This document shows, piece after piece, positions 1,480 to 61,898 of a DNA stretch of 64,000 nucleotides. The notes under the pieces are model-generated. The model made no database searches and was not told where the DNA came from. It saw only the letters and a program-made list of their open reading frames with translations. Source of the stretch: a virus (Duplodnaviria > Caudoviricetes); the IMG/VR virus record IMGVR_UViG_3300044846_003573; one strand, 5' to 3'. Numbering within the stretch: the first letter of the stretch is position 1; every line of letters starts with the position of its first letter. A program made the translations under genes and the position numbers.

Positions 1480-2223
1480 ATGATAATTTATTTAACAACT
1501 AATTTAATTAACGGTAAAAAATATGTTGGACTTGATATGAATAATGATAAGAATTATTTAGGGTCAGGTGTTCATATTAAACGTGCAATAAAAAAATATG
1601 GTAAAGAAAATTTCATAAAAGAAATTTTAGAGGTTTGTGATAATAGACAAGAGTTATTATTATGTGAAAAAAAATGGATAGAAAACTTTAAAGCTGTTGA
1701 ATCTAAAGAATTTTATAATGTTCATATCGGTGGTATTGGTGGTGACATTACACAATATATGGATGAATCTAAAATTATTGAATGGAAACAAAATATTAGT
1801 AATGGTAAAAAGGGTAAAACTAAAGGAAAACCATTAACTGAACAAAATAAAAAAGGTATAAGTGAGTCATTGAGAAAATATTATGATAATGGTGGTGTTG
1901 CCCCATTACAAGGTAAAAAAAGAGATGATGAAACTAAAAGAAAAATAAGTGAGTCTAATAAAGGTAAAGAATTTACTAAAGAACATTTAGAAAATTTAAA
2001 AGAATCATTTAAGGGAAGAGATTATAATGGTGAAAAAAATCCATTCTACGGTAAGGGACATATGATTTCAGGTGAAAAAAACCCAATGTACGGTAAAAGT
2101 TTTTATGATGTATGGGTTGAAAAATATGGTAAAGAAGTTGCCGATATAAAGAAAAAAGAATGGTTAGATAAAAAAAGAAAAAAAAATGGAACTGATTACA
2201 ACAACAATAATGAAAAAATCTGA
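1480..2223 (+). CDS. Free-standing GIY-YIG homing endonuclease with NUMOD3-like repeats
   Basis: N-terminal IIYLTTNLINGKKYVG, YLGSG, FYN; repeats such as DETKRKISESNKGK and GEKNPFYGK/GEKNPMYGK. Confidence 0.88.
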   Translation: MIIYLTTNLINGKKYVGLDMNNDKNYLGSGVHIKRAIKKYGKENFIKEILEVCDNRQELLLCEKKWIENFKAVESKEFYNVHIGGIGGDITQYMDESKIIEWKQNISNGKKGKTKGKPLTEQNKKGISESLRKYYDNGGVAPLQGKKRDDETKRKISESNKGKEFTKEHLENLKESFKGRDYNGEKNPFYGKGHMISGEKNPMYGKSFYDVWVEKYGKEVADIKKKEWLDKKRKKNGTDYNNNNEKI

Positions 2224-8686: not shown

Positions 8687-8968
8687 ATGAACCTACAGGA
8701 ACAAATAAGAATAGTATTAAGGGAAGTAGTTAATGAATCCAAAGGTTGGAGTGATTCAAAGCAAAAATTAGAAAGAACTTTTAAATTCAAAGATTTTAAT
8801 GAATCAATGGGATTTGTTAATAAAGTTGCGAAGATTGCCGAATCACAAAATCATCATCCCGATATTAAAATAAATTACAACAAAGTAAAATTATCAATAA
8901 CTGACCACGAAAAGGGTGGGGTATCTGAAAAATGTCATAAATTGGTAAAGGCTATTGATAAACTCTAA
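8687..8968 (+). CDS. phhB: Pterin-4-alpha-carbinolamine dehydratase-like domain with MNLQE leader
   Basis: KLERTFKFKDFNESMGFVNKVAKIAESQNHHPDI...YNKV...TDHEKGGVSE. Confidence 0.8.
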   Translation: MNLQEQIRIVLREVVNESKGWSDSKQKLERTFKFKDFNESMGFVNKVAKIAESQNHHPDIKINYNKVKLSITDHEKGGVSEKCHKLVKAIDKL

Positions 8969-8972
8969 CAAT

Positions 8973-9455
8973 ATGAACCTACAAGAGAACATACAAAGGA
9001 TTAGAGAAATGATGGACATGCCTGATATGAATATATTAGATAAACCATTACAAATATGTAGTAAAAACCCAATGACAGGATATTACAGGGATGGGTATTG
9101 TAAGACGGATAGTTCAGATAAAGGAACACACACCGTTTGTAGTGAAGTAGATGATGAATTTCTTGAGTTTACAATGTCAAAAGGAAATGATTTATCTATG
9201 TTAAAAAGTGGGGACAGATGGTGTTTATGTGCAAATAGATGGAAAGAAGCGTATGATGCGGGTAAAGCACCAAAAGTAATTAAAAATGCGACAAACAAAA
9301 AAACATTAGATGTTATTGGTGATGATATTAAAGATGAAGAACTAACAGAATACGCAAGAACATTAAAAAACGCAAGACAACAGGGGGTTGGGTTAAGATT
9401 TCCGAAGTCAGCAATAAAAGCAAATCCAGCAAGGTTTAGACCTTACAACAGGTAA
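8973..9455 (+). CDS. DUF2237-family protein with MNLQE leader
   Basis: PLQICSKNPMTGYYRDGYC, GTHTVC, FLEF..SKGNDLS, GDRWCLCANRWKEA. Confidence 0.75.
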   Translation: MNLQENIQRIREMMDMPDMNILDKPLQICSKNPMTGYYRDGYCKTDSSDKGTHTVCSEVDDEFLEFTMSKGNDLSMLKSGDRWCLCANRWKEAYDAGKAPKVIKNATNKKTLDVIGDDIKDEELTEYARTLKNARQQGVGLRFPKSAIKANPARFRPYNR

Positions 9456-10368: not shown

Positions 10369-10989
10369 ATGAACCTACAGGAACACATAAGAAGAGTATT
10401 AAGGGAAGATAAAAAGAGTAAATTCATTATGGATATTGTTGATAAACATGGTGTTTATAAGACGGCAGAAATGATGGGTGTAACTATTACCTATTTATAC
10501 AAAATGTCTGATTTAAAAATTGATGAATTTGTTGCTAAAGAACTATTGGCTGAAAATATTGAAAATGGTAATTTACCTGCAAAATATAAAGGATTTGAAA
10601 TTGAAATAAGTAGTGATGATGTGTTTTATTGGGCAAGGCAGTTTAAATCGGGACACTATCCACCTAATGTATTAGAAAAAATATGGGTAATGGCAACACC
10701 TTTTTTCGCAACTGCTGATTATACACCCGTTGAACTTGATTGGTATGGATTAGAAGATGACTCAAAGAAACCTAATGTAGGAATATACGATACAAGTGGT
10801 GATGGTGATTATTTTGTGGAACTTACACATAATACACATAATGGTAATTATTTTTTTAATAGTGTTGATAATTTATTTGATTGGTATAATACGTTTTACT
10901 TACCAGAAGTGTATGAAATAATCTTGGATAGATTCATACCTGAAGTCCAAGAAGACACAGATGAAAGACTTAGAGATAAAAATACTTAA
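10369..10989 (+). CDS. MNLQE-leader protein, unknown function
   Basis: Starts MNLQEHIRRVLRED. Confidence 0.7.
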   Translation: MNLQEHIRRVLREDKKSKFIMDIVDKHGVYKTAEMMGVTITYLYKMSDLKIDEFVAKELLAENIENGNLPAKYKGFEIEISSDDVFYWARQFKSGHYPPNVLEKIWVMATPFFATADYTPVELDWYGLEDDSKKPNVGIYDTSGDGDYFVELTHNTHNGNYFFNSVDNLFDWYNTFYLPEVYEIILDRFIPEVQEDTDERLRDKNT

Positions 10990-11026
10990 GATACGGACTT
11001 AGGACCGTTGTAGTTTAGGCTACATT

Positions 11027-11057
11027 AACCCCATTGAATTCGCTACTCAGTGGGGTT
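11027..11057. terminator. Bidirectional terminator overlapping the stop of the array gene
   Basis: aaccccattga-attcgctac-tcagtggggtt between convergent genes. Confidence 0.65.
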
Positions 11058-11777
11058 TTCATTTAAGACATCTTCCACCACTGGTGAATTACATGTACGT
11101 GATGTGTGTGTTGTAGTTACCTTATGATTTAGGACTTCTTTCACCTCACTGAGAACAATAGTGGGTCTACAATAGGTTTTAGACACCTTATGATTTAATA
11201 CCTTCTCCACCATATTCGGAAACGGCGGTGTATTGAATGATATTGTAGACACCTTATGATTTAATGCCTTTTCCACCAAAACCACTTGTTCCGCATTCGT
11301 CGTTTGTGTTGTAGATACCTTATGATTTAATACATCTTCCACCAAGAAACCTTCGTTACCGATATCGTTTTGCGTTGTGAATACCTTATAATTTAATACC
11401 TCTTCCATCTTCACATTTGCCTTCATGCCCATATAAACAGTTGTAGATACCTTATGATTTAATACCTCTTCCACCTCATCATACTTTTTCTCCGCACACA
11501 ATTCAGTTGTGGGCACCTTATGATTTAATACCTCTTCCACCCAAGAAGCGAGTATTGGTTCAAAATCTTTGGGTTCCAATGAGAAAATGGTAAAAAAACT
11601 ATTAAAGAAATAATATCTCCACCACAAACGACCACTCTTTTCAAATTCAAAATACCAATGCTCCTTTTCTCGGTCAATTAACCATATAGAATCTTTATAT
11701 GGGATTATCTCCACATTACCTAATTCTTTGTATAGTTGTTTGAATACAACCTGTTTTAATCTATCAGTTACTTTCAT
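11043..11777 (-). CDS. Array gene A: about 79-aa conserved N-domain plus 22-aa periodic array (VEEVLNHKVSTT + 10 variable aa)
   Basis: ORF track; N-domain shared with three paralogs. Confidence 0.85.
   Translation of the reverse strand: MKVTDRLKQVVFKQLYKELGNVEIIPYKDSIWLIDREKEHWYFEFEKSGRLWWRYYFFNSFFTIFSLEPKDFEPILASWVEEVLNHKVPTTELCAEKKYDEVEEVLNHKVSTTVYMGMKANVKMEEVLNYKVFTTQNDIGNEGFLVEDVLNHKVSTTQTTNAEQVVLVEKALNHKVSTISFNTPPFPNMVEKVLNHKVSKTYCRPTIVLSEVKEVLNHKVTTTHTSRTCNSPVVEDVLNENPTE
11061..11541 (-). CRISPR. CRISPR-like array A inside CDS: 7 full 36-bp repeats + 1 partial, 7 spacers of 30 bp (structure certain, CRISPR function unproven)
   Basis: Repeats start on + strand at 11110, 11176, 11242, 11308, 11374, 11440, 11506 (period 66); consensus GTTGTRGATACCTTATGATTTAATACCTCTTCCACC. 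Confidence 0.6.
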
Positions 11778-12507
11778 TTTCTTTTTTGTTGTTTAATGCC
11801 TCATCTACCGATTCCGCTCTTCTTGAGATGAATTCTTCCGTTTTGGATACCTTACGATTCAATATATCTTCCACCAAAAAGTTTCCTTCACCTACGTCAC
11901 GGACTGTTTTGGATACCTTAATATCCAATACCTCTTCCATCTCAAGATTACCTCTTGGGTGGAGATACTCCGTTGTAGATACCTTACGATTCAATACCTG
12001 TTCCACCAAATAGTTGTTAGATAAGGTCATGTTTTTTGTTGTGGATACCTTACTATTCAATACCTCTTCCATCATATCATTCGAAGTGAAACTGAATTGC
12101 TGAGTTGTGGATACCTTACTATTCAATACCTCTTCCACCCCTTGCTTAAAACTTCTGAAACGGCTTGCAGTTGTGGATACCTTACTATTCAATACCTCTT
12201 CCACCCCACCATCCATGACATATTGCGTGCTATCTGTTGTGGATACCTTACTATTCAATACCTCTTCCACCCAAGATGAAATAATTGGTTCAAAATCTTT
12301 GGACTCCAAAGAGAAAAAAGAAAAGAAAGATTTGAAATAATCATATCTCCAATATAAACATCCACTTTCAGTTAGTTGGAAATACCAGTATTTTTCTTCT
12401 CTATCAATAAACCAATAACTGTATTGGGTAGGGATAATTTCCACATTACCTAATTCTTTGTATAGTTGTTTGAATATGAGTTGTTTTAATCTATCCGTTA
12501 CTTTCAT
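11764..12507 (-). CDS. Array gene B
   Basis: ORF track; same architecture, repeat variants NSK/NRK. Confidence 0.85.
   Translation of the reverse strand: MKVTDRLKQLIFKQLYKELGNVEIIPTQYSYWFIDREEKYWYFQLTESGCLYWRYDYFKSFFSFFSLESKDFEPIISSWVEEVLNSKVSTTDSTQYVMDGGVEEVLNSKVSTTASRFRSFKQGVEEVLNSKVSTTQQFSFTSNDMMEEVLNSKVSTTKNMTLSNNYLVEQVLNRKVSTTEYLHPRGNLEMEEVLDIKVSKTVRDVGEGNFLVEDILNRKVSKTEEFISRRAESVDEALNNKKENESN
11791..12271 (-). CRISPR. CRISPR-like array B inside CDS: 7 full repeats + 1 partial, 7 spacers of 30 bp
   Basis: Repeats start at 11840, 11906, 11972, 12038, 12104, 12170, 12236; variant GTTGTGGATACCTTACTATTCAATACCTCTTCCACC. Confidence 0.6.
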
Positions 12508-13195
12508 TTTCTTTTTTATTGTTTAATGCCTTTTTCACCCAAACACTATTTAATACTTCTTCCACTGACCTTTCGGAAAACAAGGAATTATTTTTAGTTG
12601 TAGATACCCTACTATCTAATACTTTTTTTACCTTTCTTTTTTGGGCGGCGTCTACTTCAAAAGTTTCGGATACCTTATGATTTAAGACCTCTTCCACCCA
12701 CTTTGCTGTTACAGTAGTTTTCTCTTCAGTTGTGGATACCTTATGATTTAATACCTCTTCCACCAGAGGAAATTCGTCAATTACAAACATTTTTGTTGTG
12801 GATACCTTATGATTTAAGACCTCTTCCACCTGAAGTAAGCGGTGGGCCAATGTATTACCTGTTGTGGATACCTTATGATTTAATACCTCTTCCACCTTAT
12901 TGTCTCGGCGTACGGAAGGTATACGAGTTGTGGATACCTTATGATTTAAGACCTCTTCCACCCAAGAAGATATTATTGGTTCAAACTCACTCTGTTCCAA
13001 AGAGAAAATGCTGAAAAACGATGGGAAGAATGAGTATCTCCAAAATAAACATCCCTCTTTAGACAACTGAAAATACCAATAACAATTTTCCCTATCAATG
13101 AACCATACAGAGTCTTTATATGGGATTATCTCCGCATTACCTAACTCTTTGTATAGGTGTTTGAATATGAGTTGTTTTAGCTTATCTGTAACCAT
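12491..13195 (-). CDS. Array gene C
   Basis: ORF track, start moved to ATG at 13195; TATCTTTG just upstream. Confidence 0.85.
   Translation of the reverse strand: MVTDKLKQLIFKHLYKELGNAEIIPYKDSVWFIDRENCYWYFQLSKEGCLFWRYSFFPSFFSIFSLEQSEFEPIISSWVEEVLNHKVSTTRIPSVRRDNKVEEVLNHKVSTTGNTLAHRLLQVEEVLNHKVSTTKMFVIDEFPLVEEVLNHKVSTTEEKTTVTAKWVEEVLNHKVSETFEVDAAQKRKVKKVLDSRVSTTKNNSLFSERSVEEVLNSVWVKKALNNKKENESNG
12545..12962 (-). CRISPR. CRISPR-like array C inside CDS: 6 full repeats + partial, 6 spacers of 30 bp
   Basis: Repeats start at 12597, 12663, 12729, 12795, 12861, 12927. Confidence 0.6.
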
Positions 13196-13231
13196 AAGCA
13201 CAAAGATACAAAAAAACTTTGAAAATACAAA

Positions 13232-13570
13232 TTAATTTTCAGACGGTAATTTTAACGACCATTGGGAGCTCATTATCTTGTTGGACATTTGACCCTCCAA
13301 ATTCAGTTTTTTCTTAACCCATTGTCCAATAATTCTGGTAGATTGATAACTGTTAAGAGAAAAGAAGGAAGAAATTGCTTCAATTAAACCTTTATAGATA
13401 AAACACAATTCATTATTGGAATGATTACCACCATATTGAATTTGAGCAGACTCATCTTTAGGATATGAAAAATATATACTGGCACCAGTTTTAGTTATAT
13501 TGAAATCCTGACTATCAAGATACCTGAATATTACTTTATCTAATTGTGATTCTGTGATTAAATATTTCAT
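13232..13570 (-). CDS. MKYLITE-family protein
   Basis: MKYLITESQLDKVIFRYLD...SSFFSL...IIGQWV. Confidence 0.75.
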   Translation of the reverse strand: MKYLITESQLDKVIFRYLDSQDFNITKTGASIYFSYPKDESAQIQYGGNHSNNELCFIYKGLIEAISSFFSLNSYQSTRIIGQWVKKKLNLEGQMSNKIMSSQWSLKLPSEN

Positions 13571-13938
13571 GATAATGTTATACTTCTAACTGATTTAACT
13601 TCATAGTCAGGAAAGAACTCATTAAATACATCTGACATAATGAATTTGCCGTGAACTAACCAAATAGGATGAGGAAACGCTGTACCATATACATCGTCAA
13701 AGTTCCTATTATAGTATAAATCACCACTTGGTTTATTATAAACCATTACGGCGTTTTGGTCACTATCAAATAAGTTAAGTCTTAAATCATTTTCAGAATG
13801 TGAATCAACCAAATTTTCAAAATAACGAATCATTTTAGGTTTGAGTCTATTGTATTGTTCCGTATATTCAGAATCTCTCCAAGTTCTTTCAAGTTCGGAT
13901 ATTAAATTATATTGTGACTCGGTAATAATATACTTCAT
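13567..13938 (-). CDS. MKYLITE-leader protein
   Basis: MKYIITESQYNLISE. Confidence 0.7.
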   Translation of the reverse strand: MKYIITESQYNLISELERTWRDSEYTEQYNRLKPKMIRYFENLVDSHSENDLRLNLFDSDQNAVMVYNKPSGDLYYNRNFDDVYGTAFPHPIWLVHGKFIMSDVFNEFFPDYEVKSVRSITLS

Positions 13939-13944
13939 GTAATA

Positions 13945-13964
13945 ATAAATATAATTATATTTAT
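13945..13964. promoter_or_regulatory. Perfect 20-bp palindrome with back-to-back TATTTAT motifs between divergent genes
   Basis: ataaatataattatatttat between ATGs at 13938(-) and 13971(+). Confidence 0.6.
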
Positions 13965-13970
13965 AATATT

Positions 13971-14294
13971 ATGAACCTACAAGAGAATATAAAAAAAGTA
14001 TTAAGGGAAGAAACAGATTTTTCACCACAGTTCAAAAGAAGACTGAATAGATTTAAATCGTTTGTATGGGATAATAATGTAACTAATTATCCATGTGATT
14101 TTGAAAACTTTGAAGCGTTCATGCGTGGTATACAACATGAAATTATGGACATGATTACAGATGGTTCTGATACCGATGGCCCGTTGTCTGATTGGTTAAC
14201 ATATAAAGATGGTGTTACGTATGTAGAAAACTACATGAGGGATGACTTAGAAAAGTTTTATAATAAGCAATGTGTTGATGTCTTATACGTATAA
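13971..14294 (+). CDS. MNLQE-leader protein
   Basis: MNLQENIKKVLREE. Confidence 0.7.
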   Translation: MNLQENIKKVLREETDFSPQFKRRLNRFKSFVWDNNVTNYPCDFENFEAFMRGIQHEIMDMITDGSDTDGPLSDWLTYKDGVTYVENYMRDDLEKFYNKQCVDVLYV

Positions 14295-14639
14295 ATCAAG
14301 AAATTGTTCAATTGATATTCCAAGACCTGAGATACCAAAAAAGTTCATAAAGTCGGATTCATCCCAAGTATCACATCCGTTATTAATAATCCAAGATTGA
14401 CCTGTGGCATAATTCATCTGATAAAGTAAATCATAACTATTATCTAATTTTATCAGATACATCGGACCATAATTGTCCATATTAAATCTTCTTTGCATAC
14501 TATTATAACTAATACACTCATCAAAAATTATCATTACATCAGTTAAATCTGGGTCAAACTCAACACGACCTGTCAGGTCAATATTAAACTTGTCTTTAAT
14601 GAATGTTTTTAATTTAGATTCGGTGATAAGATATTTCAT
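14283..14639 (-). CDS. MKYLITE-leader protein
   Basis: MKYLITESKL. Confidence 0.7.
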   Translation of the reverse strand: MKYLITESKLKTFIKDKFNIDLTGRVEFDPDLTDVMIIFDECISYNSMQRRFNMDNYGPMYLIKLDNSYDLLYQMNYATGQSWIINNGCDTWDESDFMNFFGISGLGISIEQFLDLYV

Positions 14640-14655
14640 TATATATAAATATTAG

Positions 14656-15066
14656 TTAACAATTTCCTGTATTATAAACCTCAATATTGTGAACACTAAT
14701 TAGACCGCCACCGAACTGATATAAAGCCTTAGAAATAACATCTCTATACATACTTCTTGTACCTTCCTCATAGATATACCTTCCCACATTTGCAGGAGCT
14801 GGCTTAGGTATGTAGACGACCAAATTCATAGAGTCACGAGTGGGGATGATATTATAACTACAATACATCAAGACGGTTGAGATATCATTTTCAAGTATAG
14901 TTTTTGTTAGAAAGATAATATCTTCTCTTGTTCCTTTAAGACCAATCTCATCAATAATATCTTCAGGTTCCTTATCAGTCATTTTACACAGAGTACGCAT
15001 ACCAAATTTCTCTAATAAGGGTTTAAGAGTTTTGTTATATTGATTCTCAGTGATTAAGTATTTCAT
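14656..15066 (-). CDS. MKYLITE-leader protein
   Basis: MKYLITENQY. Confidence 0.7.
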   Translation of the reverse strand: MKYLITENQYNKTLKPLLEKFGMRTLCKMTDKEPEDIIDEIGLKGTREDIIFLTKTILENDISTVLMYCSYNIIPTRDSMNLVVYIPKPAPANVGRYIYEEGTRSMYRDVISKALYQFGGGLISVHNIEVYNTGNC

Positions 15067-15078
15067 TATATGTAAATA

Positions 15079-15411
15079 TTAGTTATAGTGAACCTTCAAA
15101 ACTTCGGACTTGCTAAAGACAACCCATTGTGAGTAACTGACTTCCATTTGTAGGGTATTTCCAACCCAATTACCAATAATCTTTTTAGAGCGGACTTCAT
15201 CTAAAGAAAATAATACAGAGATGTCCTCAATTAAATTTAAGTTTATCTGACAAACACCATTTTTTTTATTATATCTAATTTGGGCATGTTCATCTTCTTC
15301 TGAATTAACAAAGAATATATTACTACTTGTTTCAATCTGAATAAAGTTCTGGCTATCCAAATATCTAAAGATTACTCTGTCTAATTGTGATTCGGTGATA
15401 AGGTATTTCAT
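15079..15411 (-). CDS. MKYLITE-family protein (WVxNTLQM subfamily)
   Basis: MKYLITESQLDRVIFRYLD...IGNWVGNTLQMEVSYS. Confidence 0.75.
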   Translation of the reverse strand: MKYLITESQLDRVIFRYLDSQNFIQIETSSNIFFVNSEEDEHAQIRYNKKNGVCQINLNLIEDISVLFSLDEVRSKKIIGNWVGNTLQMEVSYSQWVVFSKSEVLKVHYN

Positions 15412-15414
15412 ATA

Positions 15415-15735
15415 TTAATAATCAAAAAACATAACATCAACATCAAATGCTTTACTAAACCAATCAGAAATGAATTTACCTGATTGCTCTTTATCAAGTG
15501 GATACATGGATGAAAACTTATCTAAAAAAGATTCATCAATATATAATCTACCATCGCTGTGGTCAAACTCCATTAAAATAAAAAAATCAGGGCCTCTTTC
15601 AGGGCTATATATATTAATGAAATCACTATCTGATGTTCTATCATAATCTAATAATTTATTTAACTCAGATATCATTAAATTATTTATTACCGATTTGACT
15701 TTATCTAATTGTGATTCGGTGATGAGGTATTTCAT
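15415..15735 (-). CDS. MKYLITE-leader protein
   Basis: Start moved to ATG at 15735. Confidence 0.7.
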   Translation of the reverse strand: MKYLITESQLDKVKSVINNLMISELNKLLDYDRTSDSDFINIYSPERGPDFFILMEFDHSDGRLYIDESFLDKFSSMYPLDKEQSGKFISDWFSKAFDVDVMFFDY

Positions 15736-15768
15736 ATAAAATATAAATATAATCATATTTATAATAAT

Positions 15769-16098
15769 ATGAACTTAAAAGAATCTATAAAAAGAATACT
15801 GAGGGAAGAACTATCGGCGAGAATTAAAAGAAGACTTTCTAATGATGAAATGGAAAATGAGTTTCTTGAATCTTTTGAAGGCGCTTATCGTCTTACAAAA
15901 GACAGAAAGGTTTTAAGTTCACATTTTTTAGATGAGTTAGTCTACACAACAATAACCTTTATGATGGATGGGGTACATTGGAGATTTGTTAGTACATTAC
16001 CTGAAGATGAATTTTGGTATGATGATATACACCAAGGATTAGAAAATCATTATAGAAAAAGAATTACACGGATGTATAATGAAAGAAAAGGTTTTTAA
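15769..16098 (+). CDS. MNLQE-leader protein
   Basis: MNLKESIKRILREE. Confidence 0.7.
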   Translation: MNLKESIKRILREELSARIKRRLSNDEMENEFLESFEGAYRLTKDRKVLSSHFLDELVYTTITFMMDGVHWRFVSTLPEDEFWYDDIHQGLENHYRKRITRMYNERKGF

Positions 16099-16101
16099 AG
16101 A

Positions 16102-16380
16102 TTAATTAGAGTTTAAGAATTTGAGTAACGCTCTAATATATTCGGAACGTTTATTATAGAATTCAGTATCATCATCATATTGAAAAAACTCTTCACCTCT
16201 ATGTCTATCAACGAACTTTTCAATTAATTCATAAGCGTAGTCATCTCTGTCGGCGGAATCTTCAAAATCTTCTTCATCCATAATGTAGTTATAATCATCC
16301 CTAAGTGATTCCAATTCATCCATTGTAAACCTCCTAAGTAAAAATGCTTCTAACTGTGATTCTGTAATTAAGTATTTCAT
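16102..16380 (-). CDS. MKYLITE-leader acidic protein
   Basis: MKYLITESQLE; D/E-rich. Confidence 0.7.
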   Translation of the reverse strand: MKYLITESQLEAFLLRRFTMDELESLRDDYNYIMDEEDFEDSADRDDYAYELIEKFVDRHRGEEFFQYDDDTEFYNKRSEYIRALLKFLNSN

Positions 16381-16733
16381 TATTCGTTAACCATTAATCT
16401 GTAATCATATGGACCATCCCAAACCGTACTATCACTAATACCCAAAGTATTATTAACCCATGCTTTGATTATATCCAAACAATCCGATTTATCAATGGAG
16501 AAGAAGGTAGATAATTTATCAGTCAAATCAGAATTTACAAACACCCAATTCCTAACTTCACCAAAAGCGTTATTAGTATAAACACTAATCTGTGATTCCC
16601 TATCTGACTCACTGTTTAAGAAATATATATAATTGCTGAATTTCTTCTTGTTGTCATACATCACAAAGTCCTGAATATCAAGATACTTAAAGATTACTTT
16701 CTCTAATTTTGATTCGGTGATAAGGTATTTCAT
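16380..16733 (-). CDS. MKYLITE-family protein
   Basis: MKYLITESKLEKVIFKYLD...FFSID...WVNNTL. Confidence 0.75.
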   Translation of the reverse strand: MKYLITESKLEKVIFKYLDIQDFVMYDNKKKFSNYIYFLNSESDRESQISVYTNNAFGEVRNWVFVNSDLTDKLSTFFSIDKSDCLDIIKAWVNNTLGISDSTVWDGPYDYRLMVNE

Positions 16734-17068
16734 TATATATAAATATTCTTAGGTATTTTCAACCAAGACTGGGTCATCAAACCAGCCTTGGTGGTATTTG
16801 TAACTTTCATTTGTAGGGTATTCCCAACCCACCTACCAATAGCCGATTCAGAATCAGATTTGTCCAAAGAAAATAACGATGAGATGTTCTTGATTAATTC
16901 GGGACTTATTACGCAACCAAAATTACCATTTTTGATTTGAGCATATTCATCATCTTCAGAGTTAACGAAGTATACTAAAAGACCTATTTTAATTTGAATA
17001 AAATCTTGATGGTTCAAGTAAATAAAGATTGCTCTATCTAATTGTGATTCGGTGATAAGGTATTTCAT
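16733..17068 (-). CDS. MKYLITE-family protein (WVxNTLQM subfamily)
   Basis: ...AIGRWVGNTLQMKVTNT + 10 aa + LKIP. Confidence 0.75.
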   Translation of the reverse strand: MKYLITESQLDRAIFIYLNHQDFIQIKIGLLVYFVNSEDDEYAQIKNGNFGCVISPELIKNISSLFSLDKSDSESAIGRWVGNTLQMKVTNTTKAGLMTQSWLKIPKNIYI

Positions 17069-17080
17069 TATATATAAGTA

Positions 17081-17395
17081 TTAGTTAGGTGCTCTCAATC
17101 GTTCAGTGGGTAGGGTGTAAGAAATCTTTATTTGGAGAGTATCACTAACCCAACTACCAATAACTTCTTTTGAATCTAAATAATGTAAAGAAAATAAAGA
17201 AGAAATCTCATCAATTAATTTAGTGGATATATAACACCATTCATTAGTTATACTAGATTTAATTTGAGCGTATTCGTCACCTTCTGAATTAATAAAGTAT
17301 ACACCACCATTTTTCTCAATCTGAATAAAATCCTGATTATCCAAGTACTTAAAGATTACCTGATTTAATTTAGATTCTGTTATAAGGTATTTCAT
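17081..17395 (-). CDS. MKYLITE-family protein
   Basis: Start moved to ATG at 17395; ...VIGSWVSDTLQIKISYT. Confidence 0.75.
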   Translation of the reverse strand: MKYLITESKLNQVIFKYLDNQDFIQIEKNGGVYFINSEGDEYAQIKSSITNEWCYISTKLIDEISSLFSLHYLDSKEVIGSWVSDTLQIKISYTLPTERLRAPN

Positions 17396-17502
17396 TATAT
17401 ATAAATACAAAGATACACATAAAACTGAACAATACATATTGGGTTAATAATTTAATAAGAATATGATAATATGGTTTGAGGTTGTTTTTAATACTTATTA
17501 TT

Positions 17503-18210
17503 ATGGATTTATCAAAGTTTTTAACCATAGTAATCCCTTGTAAGAACGAGGGCAAGATAATAGAACAAACGTTGTCCTTATTAAACTTTCAAAAGGGAAT
17601 ACAAGATGTTAGAGTTATTGTTTGTGATTCATCGGATGATGATTATACATCCTATTCTTTGGAAAATAGGAGAACAGATTATTTTAATCTACAGATTATT
17701 TCAGGAGGACTTCCGTCTGTTGCAAGAAATAAGGGGGCTGAGAATGTGGAAACACCTTATGTTTTATTTTTGGATGCTGACATATTCTTATTGGATTTCA
17801 ACATATTAAACAATTGTATATGGGAGTTCTTATTACATAATACAGATTTGATTACATGTAAGGTAAGGTCAACGACAGGTGAGTATAATAGTATATTCAG
17901 ATTGTTTGATACAATACAAAAGGTATTTAAACCAATCACGCCATTTTGTCTTGGTGGGTTCATGATGGTAAAGAAAGAAGTATATGATACAATCGGTGGG
18001 TTTGATGAAAACGCAAGAGTTGCCGAGGATTATCTATTCTCCAAACAAGTTAAACCAAGCAAGTTTTATATCATGAATACGACGGTATTCACAAGTCCAA
18101 GAAGGTTCAAACAGAAAGGGGTGTGGTATATGTTAAAACTTATGGTTAGTTCATTCTTCAACAGAAACAATAAAAATCATTTTGAGGATGATAAAGGATA
18201 CTGGGAATGA
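17503..18210 (+). CDS. Glycosyltransferase family 2
   Basis: TIVIPCKNEG, VIVCDSSDD, ARNKGA, YVLFLDAD, GGFDE...AED. Confidence 0.85.
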   Translation: MDLSKFLTIVIPCKNEGKIIEQTLSLLNFQKGIQDVRVIVCDSSDDDYTSYSLENRRTDYFNLQIISGGLPSVARNKGAENVETPYVLFLDADIFLLDFNILNNCIWEFLLHNTDLITCKVRSTTGEYNSIFRLFDTIQKVFKPITPFCLGGFMMVKKEVYDTIGGFDENARVAEDYLFSKQVKPSKFYIMNTTVFTSPRRFKQKGVWYMLKLMVSSFFNRNNKNHFEDDKGYWE

Positions 18211-18923
18211 ATAATTGGAAAACAATAATCATGAGTGATTTACACTTAGGAGCAAGACAATCACAGACAGATAAGATAATAAGTTTCTTGGATAATAACA
18301 CAACAGAAAAACTAATACTGAACGGTGATATTATAGATGGTTGGGCTCTTAAAGGTAATGGTAAATGGACGAAGGATTGTACCAAGATATTCAGGAAGTT
18401 CATGAAGATGTCTGAGAAGAATACAAAGGTAATTTATATAAGAGGAAACCACGATGACTTCCTAAAAGATTTTATTCCATTTAAATTAAACAACATTAGG
18501 ATTGTAAGAAAGTATATACATAATGGTATTGACGGAAGAAAGTATTTTTGTTTTCACGGGGATGTATTGGATTTCGTTATAATGGAAGCGAGGTGGTTAG
18601 CAGTAATCGGTGGATGGTCATATGATATTGTCATTAAGTTTAATACTCTATATAACAAAATAAGAAAGTGGTTTAACTTACCATATCATTCATTGGCAAA
18701 CACAATAAAACAATCAGTAAAAGGGGCAATTAACTTTGTATCTGATTTTGAACAAAACGCGAAAGGTCTAACAAAACAAAAGGGATATGATGTTGCGGTG
18801 TGTGGACATATTCATCACCCGAAGATAGAGAATGACTATATGAACTCAGGAGACTTTTGTGAGAACTCTACATGTCTTGTAGAAGATTATAACGGGGAGT
18901 GGAAGATTATTACTATTAGTTAG
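18207..18923 (+). CDS. Calcineurin-like metallophosphoesterase, UDP-2,3-diacylglucosamine hydrolase (LpxH)-like
   Basis: SDLHLG, LNGDIIDGW, RGNHDD, FHGD, CGHIHHP, YMNSGDF. Confidence 0.85.
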   Translation: MNNWKTIIMSDLHLGARQSQTDKIISFLDNNTTEKLILNGDIIDGWALKGNGKWTKDCTKIFRKFMKMSEKNTKVIYIRGNHDDFLKDFIPFKLNNIRIVRKYIHNGIDGRKYFCFHGDVLDFVIMEARWLAVIGGWSYDIVIKFNTLYNKIRKWFNLPYHSLANTIKQSVKGAINFVSDFEQNAKGLTKQKGYDVAVCGHIHHPKIENDYMNSGDFCENSTCLVEDYNGEWKIITIS

Positions 18924-19245
18924 GTATTTTAAACAAATTGTTCACATCGTGAAAGACCAAACGGGTATAAGTAACCCTCATTTGTAGAGTATTTTCAACC
19001 CATCTACCGATAACTTCCTTAGAATCATATATGTCCAAAGAAAAGAAAGAAGAAATTTCGTAAATTAATCCATGGCGTATATAACACCAACCATCGTTTC
19101 TATCATATCTGATTTGGGCATATTTATCATCTTCCGAATTAACAAAGTATATTGCGTTTCCTCTTTTAATCTGAATAAAGTTCTTAATATCCAAATATCT
19201 AAAGATTACTCTGTCTAATTGTGATTCTGTGATAAGATATTTCAT
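18916..19245 (-). CDS. MKYLITE-family protein (WVxNTLQM subfamily)
   Basis: ...VIGRWVENTLQMRVTYT + 10 aa + FKIPN. Confidence 0.75.
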   Translation of the reverse strand: MKYLITESQLDRVIFRYLDIKNFIQIKRGNAIYFVNSEDDKYAQIRYDRNDGWCYIRHGLIYEISSFFSLDIYDSKEVIGRWVENTLQMRVTYTRLVFHDVNNLFKIPN

Positions 19246-19275
19246 TACATATAAATATCATAAAGATAATAACTA

Positions 19276-20070
19276 TTATTGATTTAAGACCTGTTCCATC
19301 ACATAGTTCATAACAGACATTTCTACATCCGTTGTACATTCCTTATGATTTAATACCTCTTCCACCCCTCTTGTGAAGGGTCCAGAATATGCTTCCAATG
19401 TTGATACCTTATGATTTAATACCTCTTCTACCTCAATTTTTCCAACGTAATCAAGTGAATCGGTTGTAGATACCTTATGATTTAATACTTCTTCCACCAA
19501 TGAATGTTCGGGGTATTTGAGAATGGTAGTTGTAGACACCTTAACATTATGACTTAATACATCTTCCACCCGTGTTCGGATATGAGCATTGTGAGTATTA
19601 GTTGTGGATACCTTACTATTCAATACCTCTTCCACCTTCCAAGGAACACGAACTTTAACATCGCACGTTGTGGATACCTTATGATTTAATACATCTTCCA
19701 CCATCATGCTTTCAACACCGCTACCTGTCACGGTTGTAGATACCTTATGATTTAAGACCTCTTCCACCTTGTCCGTTGTAATTGGAAGTGGAATGAAGGT
19801 TGTGGATACCTTATGATTTAAGACCTCTTCCACCCAAGAAGATAGAACAGGACAAAAATCATCCAAACTCATGGAGAATATTTGAAAAAACGAATTAAAA
19901 AAATCGTATCTCCACCATAAAGTACCTGACTCATCAAGTTCAAAGTACCAGTATTTATTATCCCTATTAATAAACCATATAGACCCATTATAAGGAATAA
20001 TCTCACAATCACCCAACTCTTTATATAGGTGTTTAAAAATAAGTTGTTTTAATCTATCTGTAATAACCAT
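19276..20070 (-). CDS. Array gene D
   Basis: ORF track; same N-domain and 22-aa array; TATATTTG at 20075-20082 upstream. Confidence 0.85.
   Translation of the reverse strand: MVITDRLKQLIFKHLYKELGDCEIIPYNGSIWFINRDNKYWYFELDESGTLWWRYDFFNSFFQIFSMSLDDFCPVLSSWVEEVLNHKVSTTFIPLPITTDKVEEVLNHKVSTTVTGSGVESMMVEDVLNHKVSTTCDVKVRVPWKVEEVLNSKVSTTNTHNAHIRTRVEDVLSHNVKVSTTTILKYPEHSLVEEVLNHKVSTTDSLDYVGKIEVEEVLNHKVSTLEAYSGPFTRGVEEVLNHKECTTDVEMSVMNYVMEQVLNQ
19281..19834 (-). CRISPR. CRISPR-like array D inside CDS: 8 full repeats (one with a 6-bp insertion) + partial, 8 spacers of 30 bp
   Basis: Repeats start at 19331, 19397, 19463, 19529 (42 bp), 19601, 19667, 19733, 19799. Confidence 0.6.
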
Positions 20071-20885
20071 AGAGCAAATATAGTAAGAAATTATGAACTA
20101 AACAAACTCATTCCCCCATTCCACTATCGTGTCGTTCCATTCCCCTTCGGGTCATTACACTAATGGGTTCATTCATTTGTTTACTTCCTAATTTCATCAG
20201 GTCAAGAACTTCCTAATTTCCCCTATTGTATGAATCTATAATTAACGTACAACACTAATCTATAATAATCCCCCATAATGAAAGACACATACTATGAAGG
20301 GACATAACATATTACTGTTAATGGTATTGTACCCCATCGGGATAATGAAATACCCTAAAGGGTATATAAGATGATATTAGTATACCTGTTAGGGTATAAA
20401 ATATATGGTGGAATGTGAAAGGGACAATGTTCTTTATAGGGAACATAACCCTACAGGGTTATCCCTTATATAACACATTATGTCCCACTTTTTACCACCA
20501 CTATAATTGTCCATATCATGTGTCTATATGGTAAGGGGAAATCTTAAAAACCCCCTTGAAGACACTATAAAATACACTTTTCGTTGAAGGATTTAAACAA
20601 CTAAAGTCTGTCCACGCCACTTTATTGTTACATCCTATTTTTAGCTGGAAAATGTATATAGTTAAAAAAACCCTTCTCACACTATCAGGAGGACCACTTT
20701 TTTCACTTTTCATATAACCAAAAACCCCTCTCACATATACGTCAGTGGTAAAAAGTGGGAACATTTACCTATGGACAATATACATAATATACACTATATT
20801 TATAGTTGTTAATATGTCTAAAACCCGTCAAGGGGATTATCCCTTATCTGACGCTCCCCTGACATTTTGACAAAATCAAGAAAAA

Positions 20886-29494: not shown

Positions 29495-29515
29495 TTTTTG
29501 TTAATATTTATTATT

Positions 29516-30133
29516 ATGAGTAAACAAATGAGAGAAATGATAAACAAATTTGGTAATGTACTGAATGAGTCATCTTTAAACCGTGTACATTCATTTATTC
29601 AAAAACATGATTGTTCAATTATTACTGCGTTTAGAAGTTCTCTTATAAATTGTATTGATAATGAGGACGGAAAAAAACTTAATATTAGAGATAATAAATC
29701 TCGTAATAAACATTTGAAATCAACTCTTATTTCTTTGGGGTATGGTGTAACAAATGTTAAGGGAACTTACATTGAGAACTTTTTGTCTGACAATCAAATT
29801 GAAGTTAGTGAGGATAGTTATTTTGTTGTTAATCTTCCTAACGACCCATCTTTTACTGATAAGATAAAAAAACTTGGTGAGATGTTCTGTCAAGATAGTG
29901 TTTTAATTTTAGAGAAAGGTGGTGATGTAAATTATTTGTTCGGTACAAACAATTCTGATTTTCCTGGATATGGTGAGACAATACCTGTTGGAAATTTTAA
30001 ACCTGGAATTGAATCTGAGTTTATGACAAAGGTTGGTGGTCGTCCATTTGCTCTTGAGTCGTTTGATTTACTTCAAATTAATTCAAAACGAATTGTTAAG
30101 GAATTTGCAAAACCCGTCATTGATTTATTATAA
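29516..30133 (+). CDS. Conserved hypothetical large-phage protein
   Basis: VLNE-SSLNRV...SIITAFR...LGYGVTNVKGTYIE...EDSYFV. Confidence 0.65.
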   Translation: MSKQMREMINKFGNVLNESSLNRVHSFIQKHDCSIITAFRSSLINCIDNEDGKKLNIRDNKSRNKHLKSTLISLGYGVTNVKGTYIENFLSDNQIEVSEDSYFVVNLPNDPSFTDKIKKLGEMFCQDSVLILEKGGDVNYLFGTNNSDFPGYGETIPVGNFKPGIESEFMTKVGGRPFALESFDLLQINSKRIVKEFAKPVIDLL

Positions 30134-54132: not shown

Positions 54133-54209
54133 GCCTTCGTAGCTCAGTAGGATAGAGCAACAGATTTCTAATCTGTGGGTCAGGGGTTCGAATCCCTTCG
54201 GGGGTACCA
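54133..54209 (+). tRNA. tRNA-Arg (anticodon UCU) with encoded CCA
   Basis: GCCTTCG/CGGGGGT acceptor, GCTC-GAGC D arm, ACAGA-TTTCTAA-TCTGT anticodon arm, GGTTCGAATCC T arm, ACCA end. Confidence 0.92.
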
Positions 54210-57420: not shown

Positions 57421-57815
57421 TGGTGGAGATGCGGGGATTCGAACCCCGGTCCAAATATGTCGACCATAAAACACTACACGTTTAGGTCATTGTTTTTCTA
57501 AACAATCCGAAACTTCACAATTCCCTTATTTTATAGTGGTTCGGTTTACTGAGAACTAATCCTCCACTTTGTTCCTTTTCGGATAGAAACCACACCACGG
57601 TACAAGCTTCTGTTGCAAGGTTATATGCTCACCGACCCCGTTGTATACTAATCTTAGATTAGGCTACAGTTACTTCTTCAGTACGGATTAAACCGAGTGT
57701 AGAAAGTTTTGCAATTGTGTTGCCGTTTGTGTTTTAAACCAGTTTTACAGGGTTAGTTTAGCCCCGACGTGCGTTTTATGACAGATTCATACCTGTCAAA
57801 TCCAAAAACATCCCC
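57421..57815 (-). ncRNA. ssrA: tmRNA
   Basis: 5' GGGGATGTTTTTGGATTTGACAGG and 3' GGACCGGGGTTCGAATCCCCGCATCTCCACCA form an alanine-type tRNA-like domain; internal tag ORF; TATCTTTG at 57838-57845 upstream. Confidence 0.9.
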
Positions 57816-59820: not shown

Positions 59821-59849
59821 AAAAAAAAGGGGGTTTATTCCCCCTTTTT
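59821..59849. terminator. Bidirectional terminator
   Basis: aaaaaaaaggggg-tttatt-cccccttttt. Confidence 0.8.
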
Positions 59850-61898
59850 CTTTCTTGGTCTTTTCACTTTTGGTGTTTCATCAGGTTGGGCTTCAACTTC
59901 TGATATTGACACTTCCTCCTCATTGATTTCAATATTGTAGGACTTATACATTACAATTTTTTCACGTAATACTTCATCTGAAATGTAGTCTTCAATCTTT
60001 TCTTGAATCGCTCTTTTCAAAGGACGTGCTCCGTAAACATCATCAAATCCAACTTTTGAAACAAAGTCAATTACTGACTGACCGAAGTTAATGTTATATC
60101 CCAATTTTGACAAACGAGATTTCAATTTGTTAACTTCAACCAAAACAATCTTTTGAATATCGTCATTTTGAAGTGTATTGAATACAATTACCTCATCCAA
60201 ACGATTGATAAATTCAGGTGCGAAGTGGTTCTTCAATTCTTTGTTTAACATTGTTTTTTTAAGTTCTTCATTAGCATAAACATTATTAGTTTTACTAAAC
60301 CCAACACCTGCTCCAAATTCTTGCATCTTTTTCACCCCAAGATTTGAAGTCATAATAATTAAACAGTTCTTGAAATTGATTTTTCTTCCAAAACTATCTG
60401 TCATGTAACCTTCATCCAACAATTGAAGTAATGCCGAGAATATATCTTTGTGAGCCTTCTCAACCTCGTCAAATAATACCACAGAGTATGGTTTGGTTTT
60501 AACTTGTTCTGTAAGTTGACCACCTTCATCATATCCTACATAACCTGGAGGTGAACCAATCAAACGAGATACGGTATGTTTATCTTGATATTCAGACATA
60601 TCAACTCGGATAAGATTTTCATCACTACCAAAGATTTGTCTTGCCAATTCTTTTGCCAATAATGTCTTACCAACACCTGTTGAACCTAAGAATATAAATG
60701 AACCAATTGGTTTATTTGGGTCTTTGATACCTAATCTATTTCTACGAATAGATTTCGCAATCTTTGTAACCGCTTCTTTTTGTCCAATGACTGATTTATT
60801 TAACTCTTCCTCTAAATTAATAAGAGCAATTTTATCATCTAAATTAAGTTTTGTTAAAGGTATTTTTGTCATTGTTGACACTACCTCGTAAACCAATTCT
60901 TCAGAAATTGTTTTTCTATTATCCAAAAGAGTTTGTTCAAACTTTTTCTTTTCAATATCAAGTTGTGATAAAACTTTCTTTTCTTTATCTCTTAAGTTAG
61001 CGGCTTCTTCGTAATTCTGTTTTTTAACAACAAGTAATTTTTGTTGTTTAATCTCTAACGCCTGACGTTTTAATTCATCAATTATTTCAGGATTTTTTAC
61101 ATCCACCTGAGCTCTTGCTCCGACTTCATCTAAGATGTCAAACGCTTTGTCAGGGAACTCTCTGTCCGTGATATATCGCTCCGCTAAGTCAACACAGATT
61201 TGTAGAATATTATCGGTATAATTTACTTTGTGATAATTTTCGTATCTGTCTTTAACATTTTTAAGGATTTGTAATGTTTCTTCTTTTGTTGATGAACTAA
61301 CAATTACTTTTTGAAAACGTCTATCCAACGCTCCGTCCTTTTCAATTTGTTTTTTATACTCATCTAATGTTGTAGCTCCAATACATTGTATTTCACCTCT
61401 TGATAATGCTGGTTTTAAGATATTGGATGCGTCCATGGAACCTGAGGCGTTACCTGCTCCGACAATGGTATGGATTTCATCAATGAATAGAATAACATTT
61501 GGGGTTGCTTGAATTTCTTCCAAGATAACCTTTAATCGTTCCTCAAATTGACCACGATACTTTGTTCCGGCAACAACTGAATTCATCTCTAATGAAAGAA
61601 TACGTTTGTCAACCAAGTTTCTTGGACAATCACCTTCAAAAATCTTCATTGCCAATCCCTCAACAATTGCCGTCTTACCACAACCAGGTTCACCGATGAT
61701 AATTGGGTTGTTTTTCTTTCTTCTTGAAAGGATTTGAGCAATACGTAATATTTCGTCTTCTCTACCGACAACGGGGTCTAACTTACCTTCTTCGGCAAGT
61801 TTAATAAGGTCACGACTAAAATTGTCTAAAACAGGTGTACTTGAGTTAACCTCTGCTTTTTTTGGTAGTTTCCCACCTTCTTCAACTGAATCTGTCAT
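59835..61898 (-). CDS. clpC: ClpC-type AAA+ ATPase lacking the N-terminal Clp repeat domain
   Basis: Two AAA modules ([16 protein letters not shown]), [15 protein letters not shown]-like [15 protein letters not shown] loop; start moved to 61898. Confidence 0.85.

What the first reader, a model, noticed from the sequence alone, without database searches (positions are those of the whole stretch)
11061..19834. The repeat is constrained as DNA/RNA, not just as peptide: fixed wobble G and sharp 36-nt boundaries
Seen: the first base of the repeat is the third base of the last variable codon. Of 28 such codons 4 are Met/Trp (G forced). Of the 24 with a synonymous choice, 23 end in G (GAG, AAG, TTG, GGG, GTG, TCG, CAG, CGG), although this genome strongly prefers A/T at third positions. 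At the other end the Thr wobble base (first spacer base) varies over all four bases. The repeat has a GTGGA/TCCAC terminal stem. Four array C spacers counted by hand are 27-47% GC and contain CpGs, mostly above the local background. Inference: the unit is a nucleotide element with defined ends, such as an integration target, into which foreign 30-mers are inserted.
Basis: partly seen in the sequence, partly recalled or inferred. Interest (0 to 1): 0.8.

Follow-up and report, generated by a model that had tools for sequence, protein, structure and literature searches.

The report
In-frame CRISPR-like cassette arrays in phage genes
Four genes of a giant lake phage end in arrays built like CRISPR (36-base repeat, 30-base unique insert). 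The arrays are translated, and whole inserts are swapped between phages far faster than point mutations arise, by a cassette-making process still unknown.

Summary
Across 110 distinct arrays from this window and 90 related loci, the repeat is a 36-nt unit that sits one base out of phase with the codons. Its first base, the wobble base of the last variable codon, is G in 155 of 158 junctions before well-kept repeats; codon usage predicts about 15%. The next base after the repeat, a Thr wobble, is free.

The inserts are not non-coding spacers:
- None of 247 cassette families has an in-frame stop.
- Every length deviation is a multiple of 3.
- Shared cassettes evolve with pN/pS 0.26, the same as the folded N-domain (0.24).
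- Distant relatives have the same 12+10-residue architecture but only protein-level conservation.

In this subfamily the repeats are copied as DNA. Silent-site divergence is 0.20 in repeats against 0.67 in the adjacent domain, and the unpreferred silent G bases erode towards the far end of the array. Whole cassettes turn over faster than point substitution, mostly next to the N-domain. They are shuffled by crossovers inside the repeats.

Cassettes look like random DNA of about 42% GC. I found no source, Cas1 or reverse transcriptase. The repeat resembles Flavobacterium type VI-B CRISPR repeats (24-26 of 36 bases); this is a lead only. The proposed stem is not supported.

First readers of this scan noted the same family in about three other genomes.

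The parts
12491..13201 (-). Gene C. N-domain 12965-13201; array of 22-codon units 12491-12964. Its end overlaps the start of gene B.
   Evidence: ORF and translation. More than 864 homologues in metagenomes. Orthologues share the distal cassettes but differ in the proximal ones.
11764..12507 (-). Gene B. N-domain 12274-12507; array 11764-12273, with its own repeat variant (Asn-Ser-Lys). Its end overlaps the start of gene A.
   Evidence: The same variant occurs in B-type arrays of other phages.
11043..11777 (-). Gene A. N-domain 11544-11777; array 11043-11543. Its repeats are more decayed than in the other three genes.
19276..20070 (-). Gene D, the fourth paralogue, 6 kb from the others. N-domain 19837-20070; array 19276-19836. 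One repeat carries a 6-nt in-frame insertion.
   Evidence: A start-to-start distance of 138 (66+72) recurs in D-type arrays of relatives.
12927..12962 (-). Representative 36-nt repeat (first repeat of gene C). It encodes the last base of the preceding codon, then VEEVLNHKVST, then the first two bases of a Thr codon.
   Evidence: Information profile and per-position variation. It aligns with the last helix of the paralogue family.
12897..12926 (-). Representative 30-nt cassette (encodes RIPSVRRDNK together with the flanking bases).
   Evidence: An exact search in IMG/VR finds it only in one homologous array.
13232..19245 (-). Island of array-less paralogues of the N-domain (the MKYLITESQ... family: 13232-13570, 15079-15411, 16380-16733, 16733-17068, 17081-17437, 18916-19245). 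They are interspersed with other small gene families, a GT2 glycosyltransferase and a metallophosphatase.
   Evidence: Alignment A1. hhalign of array N-domains against paralogues: probability 96%, E 1.5e-9, running through the first repeat. Pfam.

Best explanation
These are translated genes for a modular hypervariable protein. Each encodes a small folded N-domain followed by 7-9 units of 12 conserved residues plus 10 variable residues.

The 12+10 layout is an old protein architecture. In this subfamily, however, the array behaves as a DNA-level cassette system.

Shown: the 36-nt repeat is propagated as an exact nucleotide unit, one base out of phase with the codons. Units nearest the N-domain are close to pristine. 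They then decay by ordinary AT-biased mutation towards the distal end.

Shown: whole 30-nt cassettes are gained, lost and replaced much faster than point substitution, mainly at the N-domain end. They are moved between arrays by homologous crossovers inside the repeats, which act as portable homology arms.

Shown: once in place, a cassette evolves slowly under purifying selection, so its peptide matters.

Inferred: unrelated new cassettes keep arising by a precise process that adds or replaces 30 nt between repeat ends. The machinery and the source of the sequence are not identified.

Inferred: the likely role is a fast-changing recognition or decoy surface in a phage-host or phage-phage conflict.
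For: Translated:
- 0 of 247 cassette families has an in-frame stop, while the other frames are 48-71% stop-free.
- The period is 66 in 504 of 519 intervals, and every exception is a multiple of 3.
- In shared cassettes 52 of 95 changes fall at codon position 3; pN/pS is 0.26 (P 1e-10). The N-domain gives 0.24.

Old protein architecture:
- The N-domain plus first repeat is homologous to the array-less paralogues.
- The profile search finds 633 representative clusters.
- A distant branch has 12-residue motifs with free synonymous sites, variable loop lengths and no G rule.
- An intermediate branch keeps the 22-codon period and the G rule with a different nucleotide repeat.

Copied as DNA:
- Boundaries are sharp.
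- The G rule holds.
- Silent divergence between paralogues is 0.20 in repeats against 0.67 in N-domains.
- Unpreferred silent G falls with unit index: position 1 from 0.99 to 0.79, position 4 from 0.97 to 0.78, position 10 from 0.97 to 0.72. Preferred A-ending codons stay.

Turnover:
- Arrays with identical N-domains differ by 2.5 cassettes on average, and Jaccard similarity is 0.02 at 11-22% N-domain divergence.
- Nearest-neighbour distances between cassettes are bimodal, 6 or fewer or 10 or more.
- Repeat decay and cassette sharing are polar, no array holds a duplicated cassette, and Chao1 is at least 665.

Shuffling: the same cassette in a different context keeps the adjacent half of each flanking repeat, while the far half is randomised.

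Composition.
Against: - No generator was found: no Cas1, no reverse transcriptase, no donor cassettes, no protospacers. Continuing birth of cassettes is inferred only from the missing intermediates and the fast turnover.
- GC-biased gene conversion in a recombination hotspot could explain part of the silent-site G and the raised GC without any generator.
- Some cassettes lie inside arrays rather than at the end. Recombination explains this, but it weakens strict polarity.
- The population inferences rest on metagenome assemblies, where joins across 36-nt repeats could in principle be chimeric.
- The array part folds with very low confidence (pLDDT under 45).
- No function is known: Pfam, PHROGs, Foldseek and the Atlas gave nothing.
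Confidence: 0.5

Rival explanations
1. CRISPR adaptation hijack. The array mimics or derives from a type VI-B/II-C-style CRISPR array. During infection the host's Cas1-Cas2 integrase inserts 30-nt prespacers at the junction with the N-domain, which acts as the leader, and duplicates the 36-nt repeat. Because 66 nt is 22 codons, every insertion stays in frame. Stop-free insertions that are useful are kept.
For: - The geometry is exact: 36-nt repeat and 30-nt insert.
- Repeat ends are exact and out of phase with the codons.
- Turnover is polar and the distal repeats are degenerate.
- Inserts are unrelated, non-duplicated and unlike phage DNA in composition.
- The repeat matches the F. columnare VI-B repeat at 24-26 of 36 ungapped positions, including the last 12 nt. 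It matches the F. branchiophilum repeat at 24-25 of 36. No shuffle out of 200,000 reaches 24.
- The topology is that of VI-B arrays: transcription from the variable, leader end, and spacers acquired in trans through II-C Cas1, also from the host genome (PMC8092290).
Against: - The repeat peptide is an integral, ancestral part of a protein domain.
- The 12+10 layout exists in distant relatives without any CRISPR-like DNA features. The geometry is therefore inherited from the protein.
- Cassettes are under purifying selection as peptides.
- Not one of 519 intervals is off by 1-2 nt.
- No Rfam CRISPR repeat family matches.
- The internal hairpin of VI-B repeats is absent and there is no covariation.
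- The matching 3' end varies between phage lineages.
- No protospacers were found.
- No closer host repeat was found in 401 sampled genomes of the class.
- The resemblance to VI-B repeats was found post hoc.
Confidence: 0.15
2. No dedicated generator. This is an ordinary repeat protein under strong diversifying, frequency-dependent selection. A very large, old population pool of loop cassettes is reshuffled by homologous recombination. Repeats are kept alike by concerted evolution and GC-biased gene conversion. The fixed G is a by-product.
For: - Recombination inside repeats is directly visible.
- Cassettes are shared between paralogous arrays and between phages.
- The distant family shows the ordinary state of the same architecture.
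- GC at four-fold sites forms a gradient: long ORFs 0.13, N-domains 0.25, cassettes 0.36. A recombination-linked bias would give this.
- A chimeric cassette arises from an in-register 66-nt deletion.
Against: - An old pool should give a continuum of cassette divergence, but distances of 7-9 are missing.
- The edges of a homology block should erode, yet position 1 is as well kept as interior positions while position 37 is free.
- Unequal crossover should give duplicated cassettes, but none is seen in 110 arrays.
- Distal cassettes of arrays C and B are the most conserved, although conserved N-domain sequence flanks them on both sides.
- Cassette amino-acid composition tracks translation of random DNA (r 0.83) better than the phage proteome (r 0.60).
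Confidence: 0.25
3. RNA-level function. The mRNA mimics a type VI-B pre-crRNA and acts as an RNA anti-CRISPR or decoy that loads host Cas13b with harmless guides. The reading frame is kept open only for translational coupling of the tandem genes.
For: - The repeat resembles VI-B repeats in the sense orientation.
- Phage-borne repeat mimics are known (PMC10651486).
- Genes C, B and A overlap, so a stop inside an array would uncouple the next gene.
- Contigs from two lake metatranscriptome libraries cover parts of genes B and C.
Against: - The codon-position pattern and the pN/pS of 0.26 in cassettes show selection on the peptide.
- The VI-B internal stem is absent, and the weak terminal stem neither covaries nor is conserved.
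- Silent positions decay in distal units.
- The RNA evidence consists of low-depth contigs that cannot exclude DNA carry-over.
Confidence: 0.05

Closest known systems
Type VI-B / II-C CRISPR arrays of Flavobacterium (F. columnare CRISPR-2; PMC5395568, PMC8092290)
   Same: - 36-nt repeat and 30-nt unique inserts.
- 24-26 of 36 identical bases, including the last 12.
- The variable end lies next to the upstream leader, from which the array is transcribed.
- Distal repeats are degenerate.
- Arrays differ between strains by whole units.
   Different: - These arrays are read in frame as protein, and the inserts are under purifying selection.
- The repeat encodes part of a conserved protein domain.
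- No cas genes, no protospacers and no conserved repeat hairpin were found.
- Insert length never deviates out of frame.
Hypervariable core cassettes between conserved recognition sequences in multi-core RiPP precursors (cyanobactin PatE, prochlorosin ProcA; from my own knowledge, not tested here)
   Same: - A leader-like N-terminal part is followed by repeated conserved flanks and short hypervariable peptide cassettes.
- The borders between near-identical and unrelated DNA are sharp.
   Different: - No modifying or processing enzymes were identified nearby.
- There are up to 9 units here and 25 in distant relatives.
- The cassettes have no recurring residue pattern.
- The setting is a phage.
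Highly internally conserved (HIC) repeats of fungal NLR genes (PMC11761791 and my own knowledge)
   Same: Tandem coding repeats are kept nearly identical at the nucleotide level by recombination and combined with hypervariability. Repeats are shuffled between paralogues.
   Different: In HIC repeats the variation sits at a few codons inside each repeat, and units are duplicated. Here ten codons are replaced wholesale and no cassette is duplicated.
[quoted passage not shown]
   Same: Intragenic tandem repeats encode a conserved amphipathic element plus variable residues. They are spread among mobile elements and large viruses.
   Different: There is no DUF285 match. The period is 22 residues, not 25. 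Variation is cassette-wise, not interspersed. The dyad symmetry is weak.
Diversity-generating retroelements and silent-cassette gene conversion systems (Bordetella phage Mtd, Borrelia vlsE; my own knowledge)
   Same: Targeted hypervariation of short segments in an otherwise conserved gene.
   Different: No reverse transcriptase. No template repeat and no adenine-specific pattern. No silent donor cassettes in a 240-kb relative.

Membership tests
CRISPR array | Direct repeats of fixed length separated by unique spacers of similar length | tested here: met
   36-nt repeat and 30-nt inserts. The period is 66 in 504 of 519 intervals. There are 247 unrelated insert families.
CRISPR array | Adaptation or effector cas genes in the same genome | tested here: not met
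   No Cas1 (PF01867) in five related phage contigs that are 37-82% complete. Nothing cas-like in the Pfam scans of neighbouring genes. The host genome is unknown.
CRISPR array | Spacers derived from foreign nucleic acids (protospacers can be found) | tested here: not met
   No match beyond chance in the local loci, in INPHARED phages, in IMG/VR for three spacers or in the own-type genome. The sampling is limited.
CRISPR array | Non-coding transcript processed into crRNAs | tested here: inconclusive
   The arrays are open reading frames under codon-level selection. RNA processing could not be tested, because only contigs of RNA libraries were available.
CRISPR array | Repeat belongs to a known CRISPR repeat family or has its conserved structure | tested here: inconclusive
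   No Rfam family matches, even at E up to 10. Identity to Flavobacterium VI-B repeats is 24-26 of 36, but their internal hairpin is absent and there is no covariation.
PARCEL (DUF285) | Match to the 25-residue DUF285/PARCEL motif | tested here: not met
   No Pfam hit for the array proteins. The period is 22 residues.
Diversity-generating retroelement target | Reverse transcriptase with a template repeat, and adenine-specific differences in the variable repeat | tested here: not met
   No RVT_1 in five related contigs. The cassettes are unrelated to each other and to the rest of the genome.
Multi-core RiPP precursor | Conserved recognition flanks around hypervariable core peptides | tested here: met
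   A 12-residue conserved motif flanks 10-residue cassettes. The cassettes are under purifying selection.
Multi-core RiPP precursor | Cognate processing or modifying enzymes encoded nearby | tested here: not met
   Only a GT2 glycosyltransferase and a metallophosphatase are recognisable in the island. No protease, cyclase or radical SAM enzyme was found.
Concerted-evolution (HIC-type) coding repeats | Nucleotide identity between repeats far above that of flanking coding sequence | tested here: met
   pS is 0.20 in repeats against 0.67 in N-domains of the same paralogues.
Concerted-evolution (HIC-type) coding repeats | Unit number changes by unequal crossover that duplicates whole units | tested here: not met
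   None of 110 arrays contains the same cassette twice.

The most novel reading that the evidence does not exclude
A dedicated mechanism exists that adds a copy of the 36-nt repeat plus a new, unrelated 30-nt sequence at the N-domain end of a translated gene. The mechanism could be phage-encoded or borrowed from the host's CRISPR adaptation machinery. It would be an insertion-based generator of protein diversity: CRISPR-style acquisition used to write new peptide cassettes into a phage protein.
Probability: 0.3. Interest if true: 0.92.

Novelty: new variant of a known kind. Interest (0 to 1): 0.75.

Why it matters
Targeted protein diversification is known from a few mechanisms: DGR retrohoming, silent-cassette gene conversion, and repeat shuffling. 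Here a widespread family in freshwater giant phages changes whole 10-residue cassettes at exact DNA borders, with CRISPR-like polarity. The profile search found 633 representative clusters. Each cassette is then conserved as a peptide.

If a precise unit-adding process is behind this, it would be a new way of writing diversity into a protein, and possibly an unexpected use of CRISPR adaptation.

Even without such a process, two points stand. First, the family is a clean natural example of repeats serving as recombination arms for a large peptide library (at least 665 cassettes in 110 arrays). Second, these arrays will be called as CRISPR arrays by repeat-spacer finders in phage metagenomes, which matters for annotation.

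Tried and rejected
- Rfam scans of the window at gathering thresholds, and of 10900-20200 at E up to 10, found no CRISPR repeat family or other relevant RNA family.
- Searches of the INPHARED phage collection with DNA (near and distant modes) and with the protein found no relatives and no credible protospacers.
- A blastn-short search of 85 spacers against the window and the first 14 related loci (267 kb, arrays masked) gave only chance matches of 13-18 nt.
- Exact searches of three N-proximal spacers in IMG/VR hit only contigs already known to carry homologous arrays.
- A BLAST search of a relative's arrays against its own 240-kb contig found no donor cassettes.
- Cas1 and reverse transcriptase family searches in five related phage contigs found nothing.
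- The genome contigs pattern scan for repeats ending like the phage repeat was too loose.
- The same pattern run on 401 genomes of that class again found only F. columnare. The host remains unknown.
- AlphaFold2 gave a moderately confident N-domain (pLDDT 70-81) and an unconfident array part. Foldseek against AFDB clusters and the PDB, PHROGs and the ESM Atlas gave no function.
- GGTGGAAG is not a genome-wide Chi-like motif. It occurs 20 times in the arrays and once elsewhere.
- Laying run contigs on the region showed that assemblies break at the repeats and that alternative cassettes exist. It could not show RNA ends.
- I considered prohead-protease cleavage at the V-E-E motif of each repeat. 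I set it aside because the motif is often V-E-D and the distant family does not keep it at that place.


Full report
WHAT IS THERE

The window has 30.6% GC. It belongs to a giant phage of lake water. Relatives lie on IMG/VR and metagenome contigs of 208-332 kb, and one homologue is named as a protein of an uncultured Caudovirales phage.

Four paralogous genes lie on the minus strand: A 11043-11777, B 11764-12507, C 12491-13201 and D 19276-20070. Each encodes an N-domain of about 78 residues followed by 7-9 units of 22 codons. Each unit has 12 conserved residues (VEEVLNHKVSTT) and 10 variable residues. Genes C, B and A overlap by 17 and 14 nt, so they are probably translationally coupled.

CHECK OF THE OBSERVATION

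I then collected 14 viral and 76 metagenomic loci. They gave 110 distinct arrays, 629 units and 247 unrelated cassette families.
- The base before GTG is G in 278 of 301 distinct junctions, and in 155 of 158 before well-kept repeats.
- Given the amino acids and the phage's codon usage, about 15% would be expected.
- Residues that cannot be encoded NNG are nearly absent at that position across 38 representative clusters with a regular period (10 of 154).
- The base after the repeat, a Thr wobble, takes all four values. It does not follow the phage's Thr codon usage.
- Information content drops from near maximal to near zero within one base at both ends.
- Spacers have 41.9% GC against 30.4%, more CpG, and a different dinucleotide signature; GpC observed/expected is 0.89 against 0.53.

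The GTGGA/TCCAC pair exists, but it folds weakly, shows no compensatory change and is lost in divergent arrays.

THE ARRAYS ARE TRANSLATED PROTEIN

- No cassette family has an in-frame stop, while the other five frames are only 48-71% stop-free. A random 30-mer from the window is stop-free about half the time.
- All 15 deviations from the 66-nt period are multiples of 3.
- Where the same cassette occurs in several arrays, 52 of 95 changes fall at codon position 3. pN/pS is 0.26 (P 1e-10). This equals the N-domain's 0.24, and the silent rate is similar. There is therefore no hypermutation, and the peptide is under selection.
- The N-domain together with the first repeat is homologous to a family of array-less paralogues that fills the island between genes C and D (hhalign probability 96%, E 1.5e-9). 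The repeat peptide is thus the last helix of that domain.
- AlphaFold2 models the N-domain with moderate confidence and gives the array low confidence.
- A profile search of 1.8 billion representatives found 633 clusters.
- A distant branch, with up to 25 units on a 332-kb contig, has a 12-residue motif followed by loops of about 9-12 residues where consecutive units could be delimited. Its synonymous sites are free, there is no G rule, and its GC equals that of its surroundings.
- An intermediate branch keeps the 22-codon period and the G rule with a different nucleotide repeat.
- The 36/30 geometry is therefore inherited from a 12+10-residue protein architecture.

IN THIS SUBFAMILY THE REPEAT IS COPIED AS DNA

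- Between the four paralogues, silent divergence is 0.67 in the N-domains but 0.20 in the repeats.
- Several silent positions use codons the phage otherwise avoids (GTG, GAG, AAG), yet they are 83-97% invariant.
- These unpreferred G bases, including position 1, fall with distance from the N-domain. Position 1 goes from 0.99 to 0.79, position 4 from 0.97 to 0.78 and position 10 from 0.97 to 0.72. Preferred A-ending codons stay.
- Repeats are therefore born identical and then decay. They are not each held by selection on DNA or RNA.

POPULATION DYNAMICS

- Orthologous arrays share their distal cassettes and differ in their proximal ones by whole units.
- Repeat mismatches to the consensus rise from 2.0 at unit 0 to about 5 at unit 6.
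- Proximal cassettes are shared by 2.9 arrays on average, and distal ones by 6.3.
- No array carries a cassette twice. Chao1 gives at least 665 cassettes (all).
- Arrays with identical 228-nt N-domains differ by 2.5 cassettes on average. At 11-22% N-domain divergence almost none is shared.
- Cassette distances are bimodal, 6 or fewer or 10 or more. Cassettes are replaced, not diverged.
- The same cassette in a different context keeps the adjacent half of each flanking repeat, while the far half is randomised. This is the signature of crossovers inside the repeats.

WHERE CASSETTES COME FROM IS UNKNOWN

Their nucleotide composition is near uniform (A .29, C .21, G .21, T .28), and no strong positional motif was seen. 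Their amino-acid composition tracks translation of random DNA (r 0.83) better than the phage proteome (r 0.60). GC at four-fold sites is 0.36, against 0.25 in their own N-domains and 0.13 in long phage genes.

I found no source sequence, no Cas1 and no reverse transcriptase.

COMPARISON WITH CRISPR

No Rfam repeat family matches.

The repeat is 24-26 of 36 identical, ungapped and in the sense orientation, to the type VI-B repeat of F. columnare. It is 24-25 of 36 identical to that of F. branchiophilum (PMC5395568, Table 4). No shuffle out of 200,000 reaches 24. VI-B arrays share the topology: they are transcribed from the variable, leader end and acquire spacers in trans (PMC8092290).

Against a real link:
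- The protein ancestry of the repeat.
- The absent internal hairpin.
- The lineage-specific 3' end.
- The post hoc nature of the match.
- No closer repeat was found among 401 sampled genomes of the class.

VERDICT

The unit is a nucleotide-level element with exact ends and wholesale 30-nt replacement. But foreign origin and an integration machinery are unproven, the stem is not supported, and the inserts are functional peptides.

My best reading (0.5): a modular hypervariable phage protein whose repeats are DNA copy units and recombination arms, with an unidentified process that keeps supplying new cassettes, mainly at the N-domain end.

Rivals:
- Recombination plus biased gene conversion, without a generator (0.25).
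- Hijacked CRISPR adaptation (0.15).
- An RNA decoy for Cas13b (0.05).

CAVEATS

The sequences are metagenome assemblies, and the junction counts are not phylogenetically independent. The RNA evidence is limited to low-depth contigs of two metatranscriptomes. First readers of this scan noted the same family in about three other genomes; those notes are unchecked.

Noticed in passing
window 57421-57815 (-) and 54133-54209 (+): The phage carries a tmRNA gene (Rfam 136 bits) with an unusual tag peptide ending in VTVA. It also carries a tRNA-Arg(TCT).
   Followed up: no
window 59835-61943 (-): A full-length FtsH-like ATP-dependent protease gene (PHROG 4871, E 4e-237) sits in a phage genome.
   Followed up: no
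window 13232-19245, and also 10369-10989, 13971-14294 and 15769-16098: This is a dense island of small paralogous gene families. At least nine genes start MKYLITESQ.... At least three on the other strand start MNLQE/MNLKE...VLREE. The shared N-termini may be a common targeting or processing signal, as an earlier first-reader note suggests.
   Followed up: partly
P0013 compared with P0005 (homologues of gene C): The cassette EFPIGRARCG looks like a chimera of two adjacent cassettes, EFPIGRAHHE and VGFEGLQRCG. This implies an in-register 66-nt deletion with its endpoints inside cassettes. It is a minor route to new cassettes.
   Followed up: no
L237:2001-3773 (a 332-kb contig) and P0239/P0230: Distant family members have about 25 units (up to 611 aa) of a V-[ED]-D-x-I-x-N-G-V-K-E-T motif with variable loop lengths. 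They lie near a tail-collar domain gene and DUF5872 genes.
   Followed up: partly
window 1480-2223, 417-1436, 29498-30133 and 8955-9455: Other recognisable genes: a SegE-like GIY-YIG homing endonuclease, a glutamine-synthetase-like gene, an S-adenosylmethionine lyase family gene (a possible anti-restriction function) and a DUF2237 gene.
   Followed up: no
window 12730-13014 (+): A 94-codon antisense ORF stays open through four units, reading LWIPYDL.PLPP repeatedly. It is most likely a by-product of the repeat rather than a gene.
   Followed up: no
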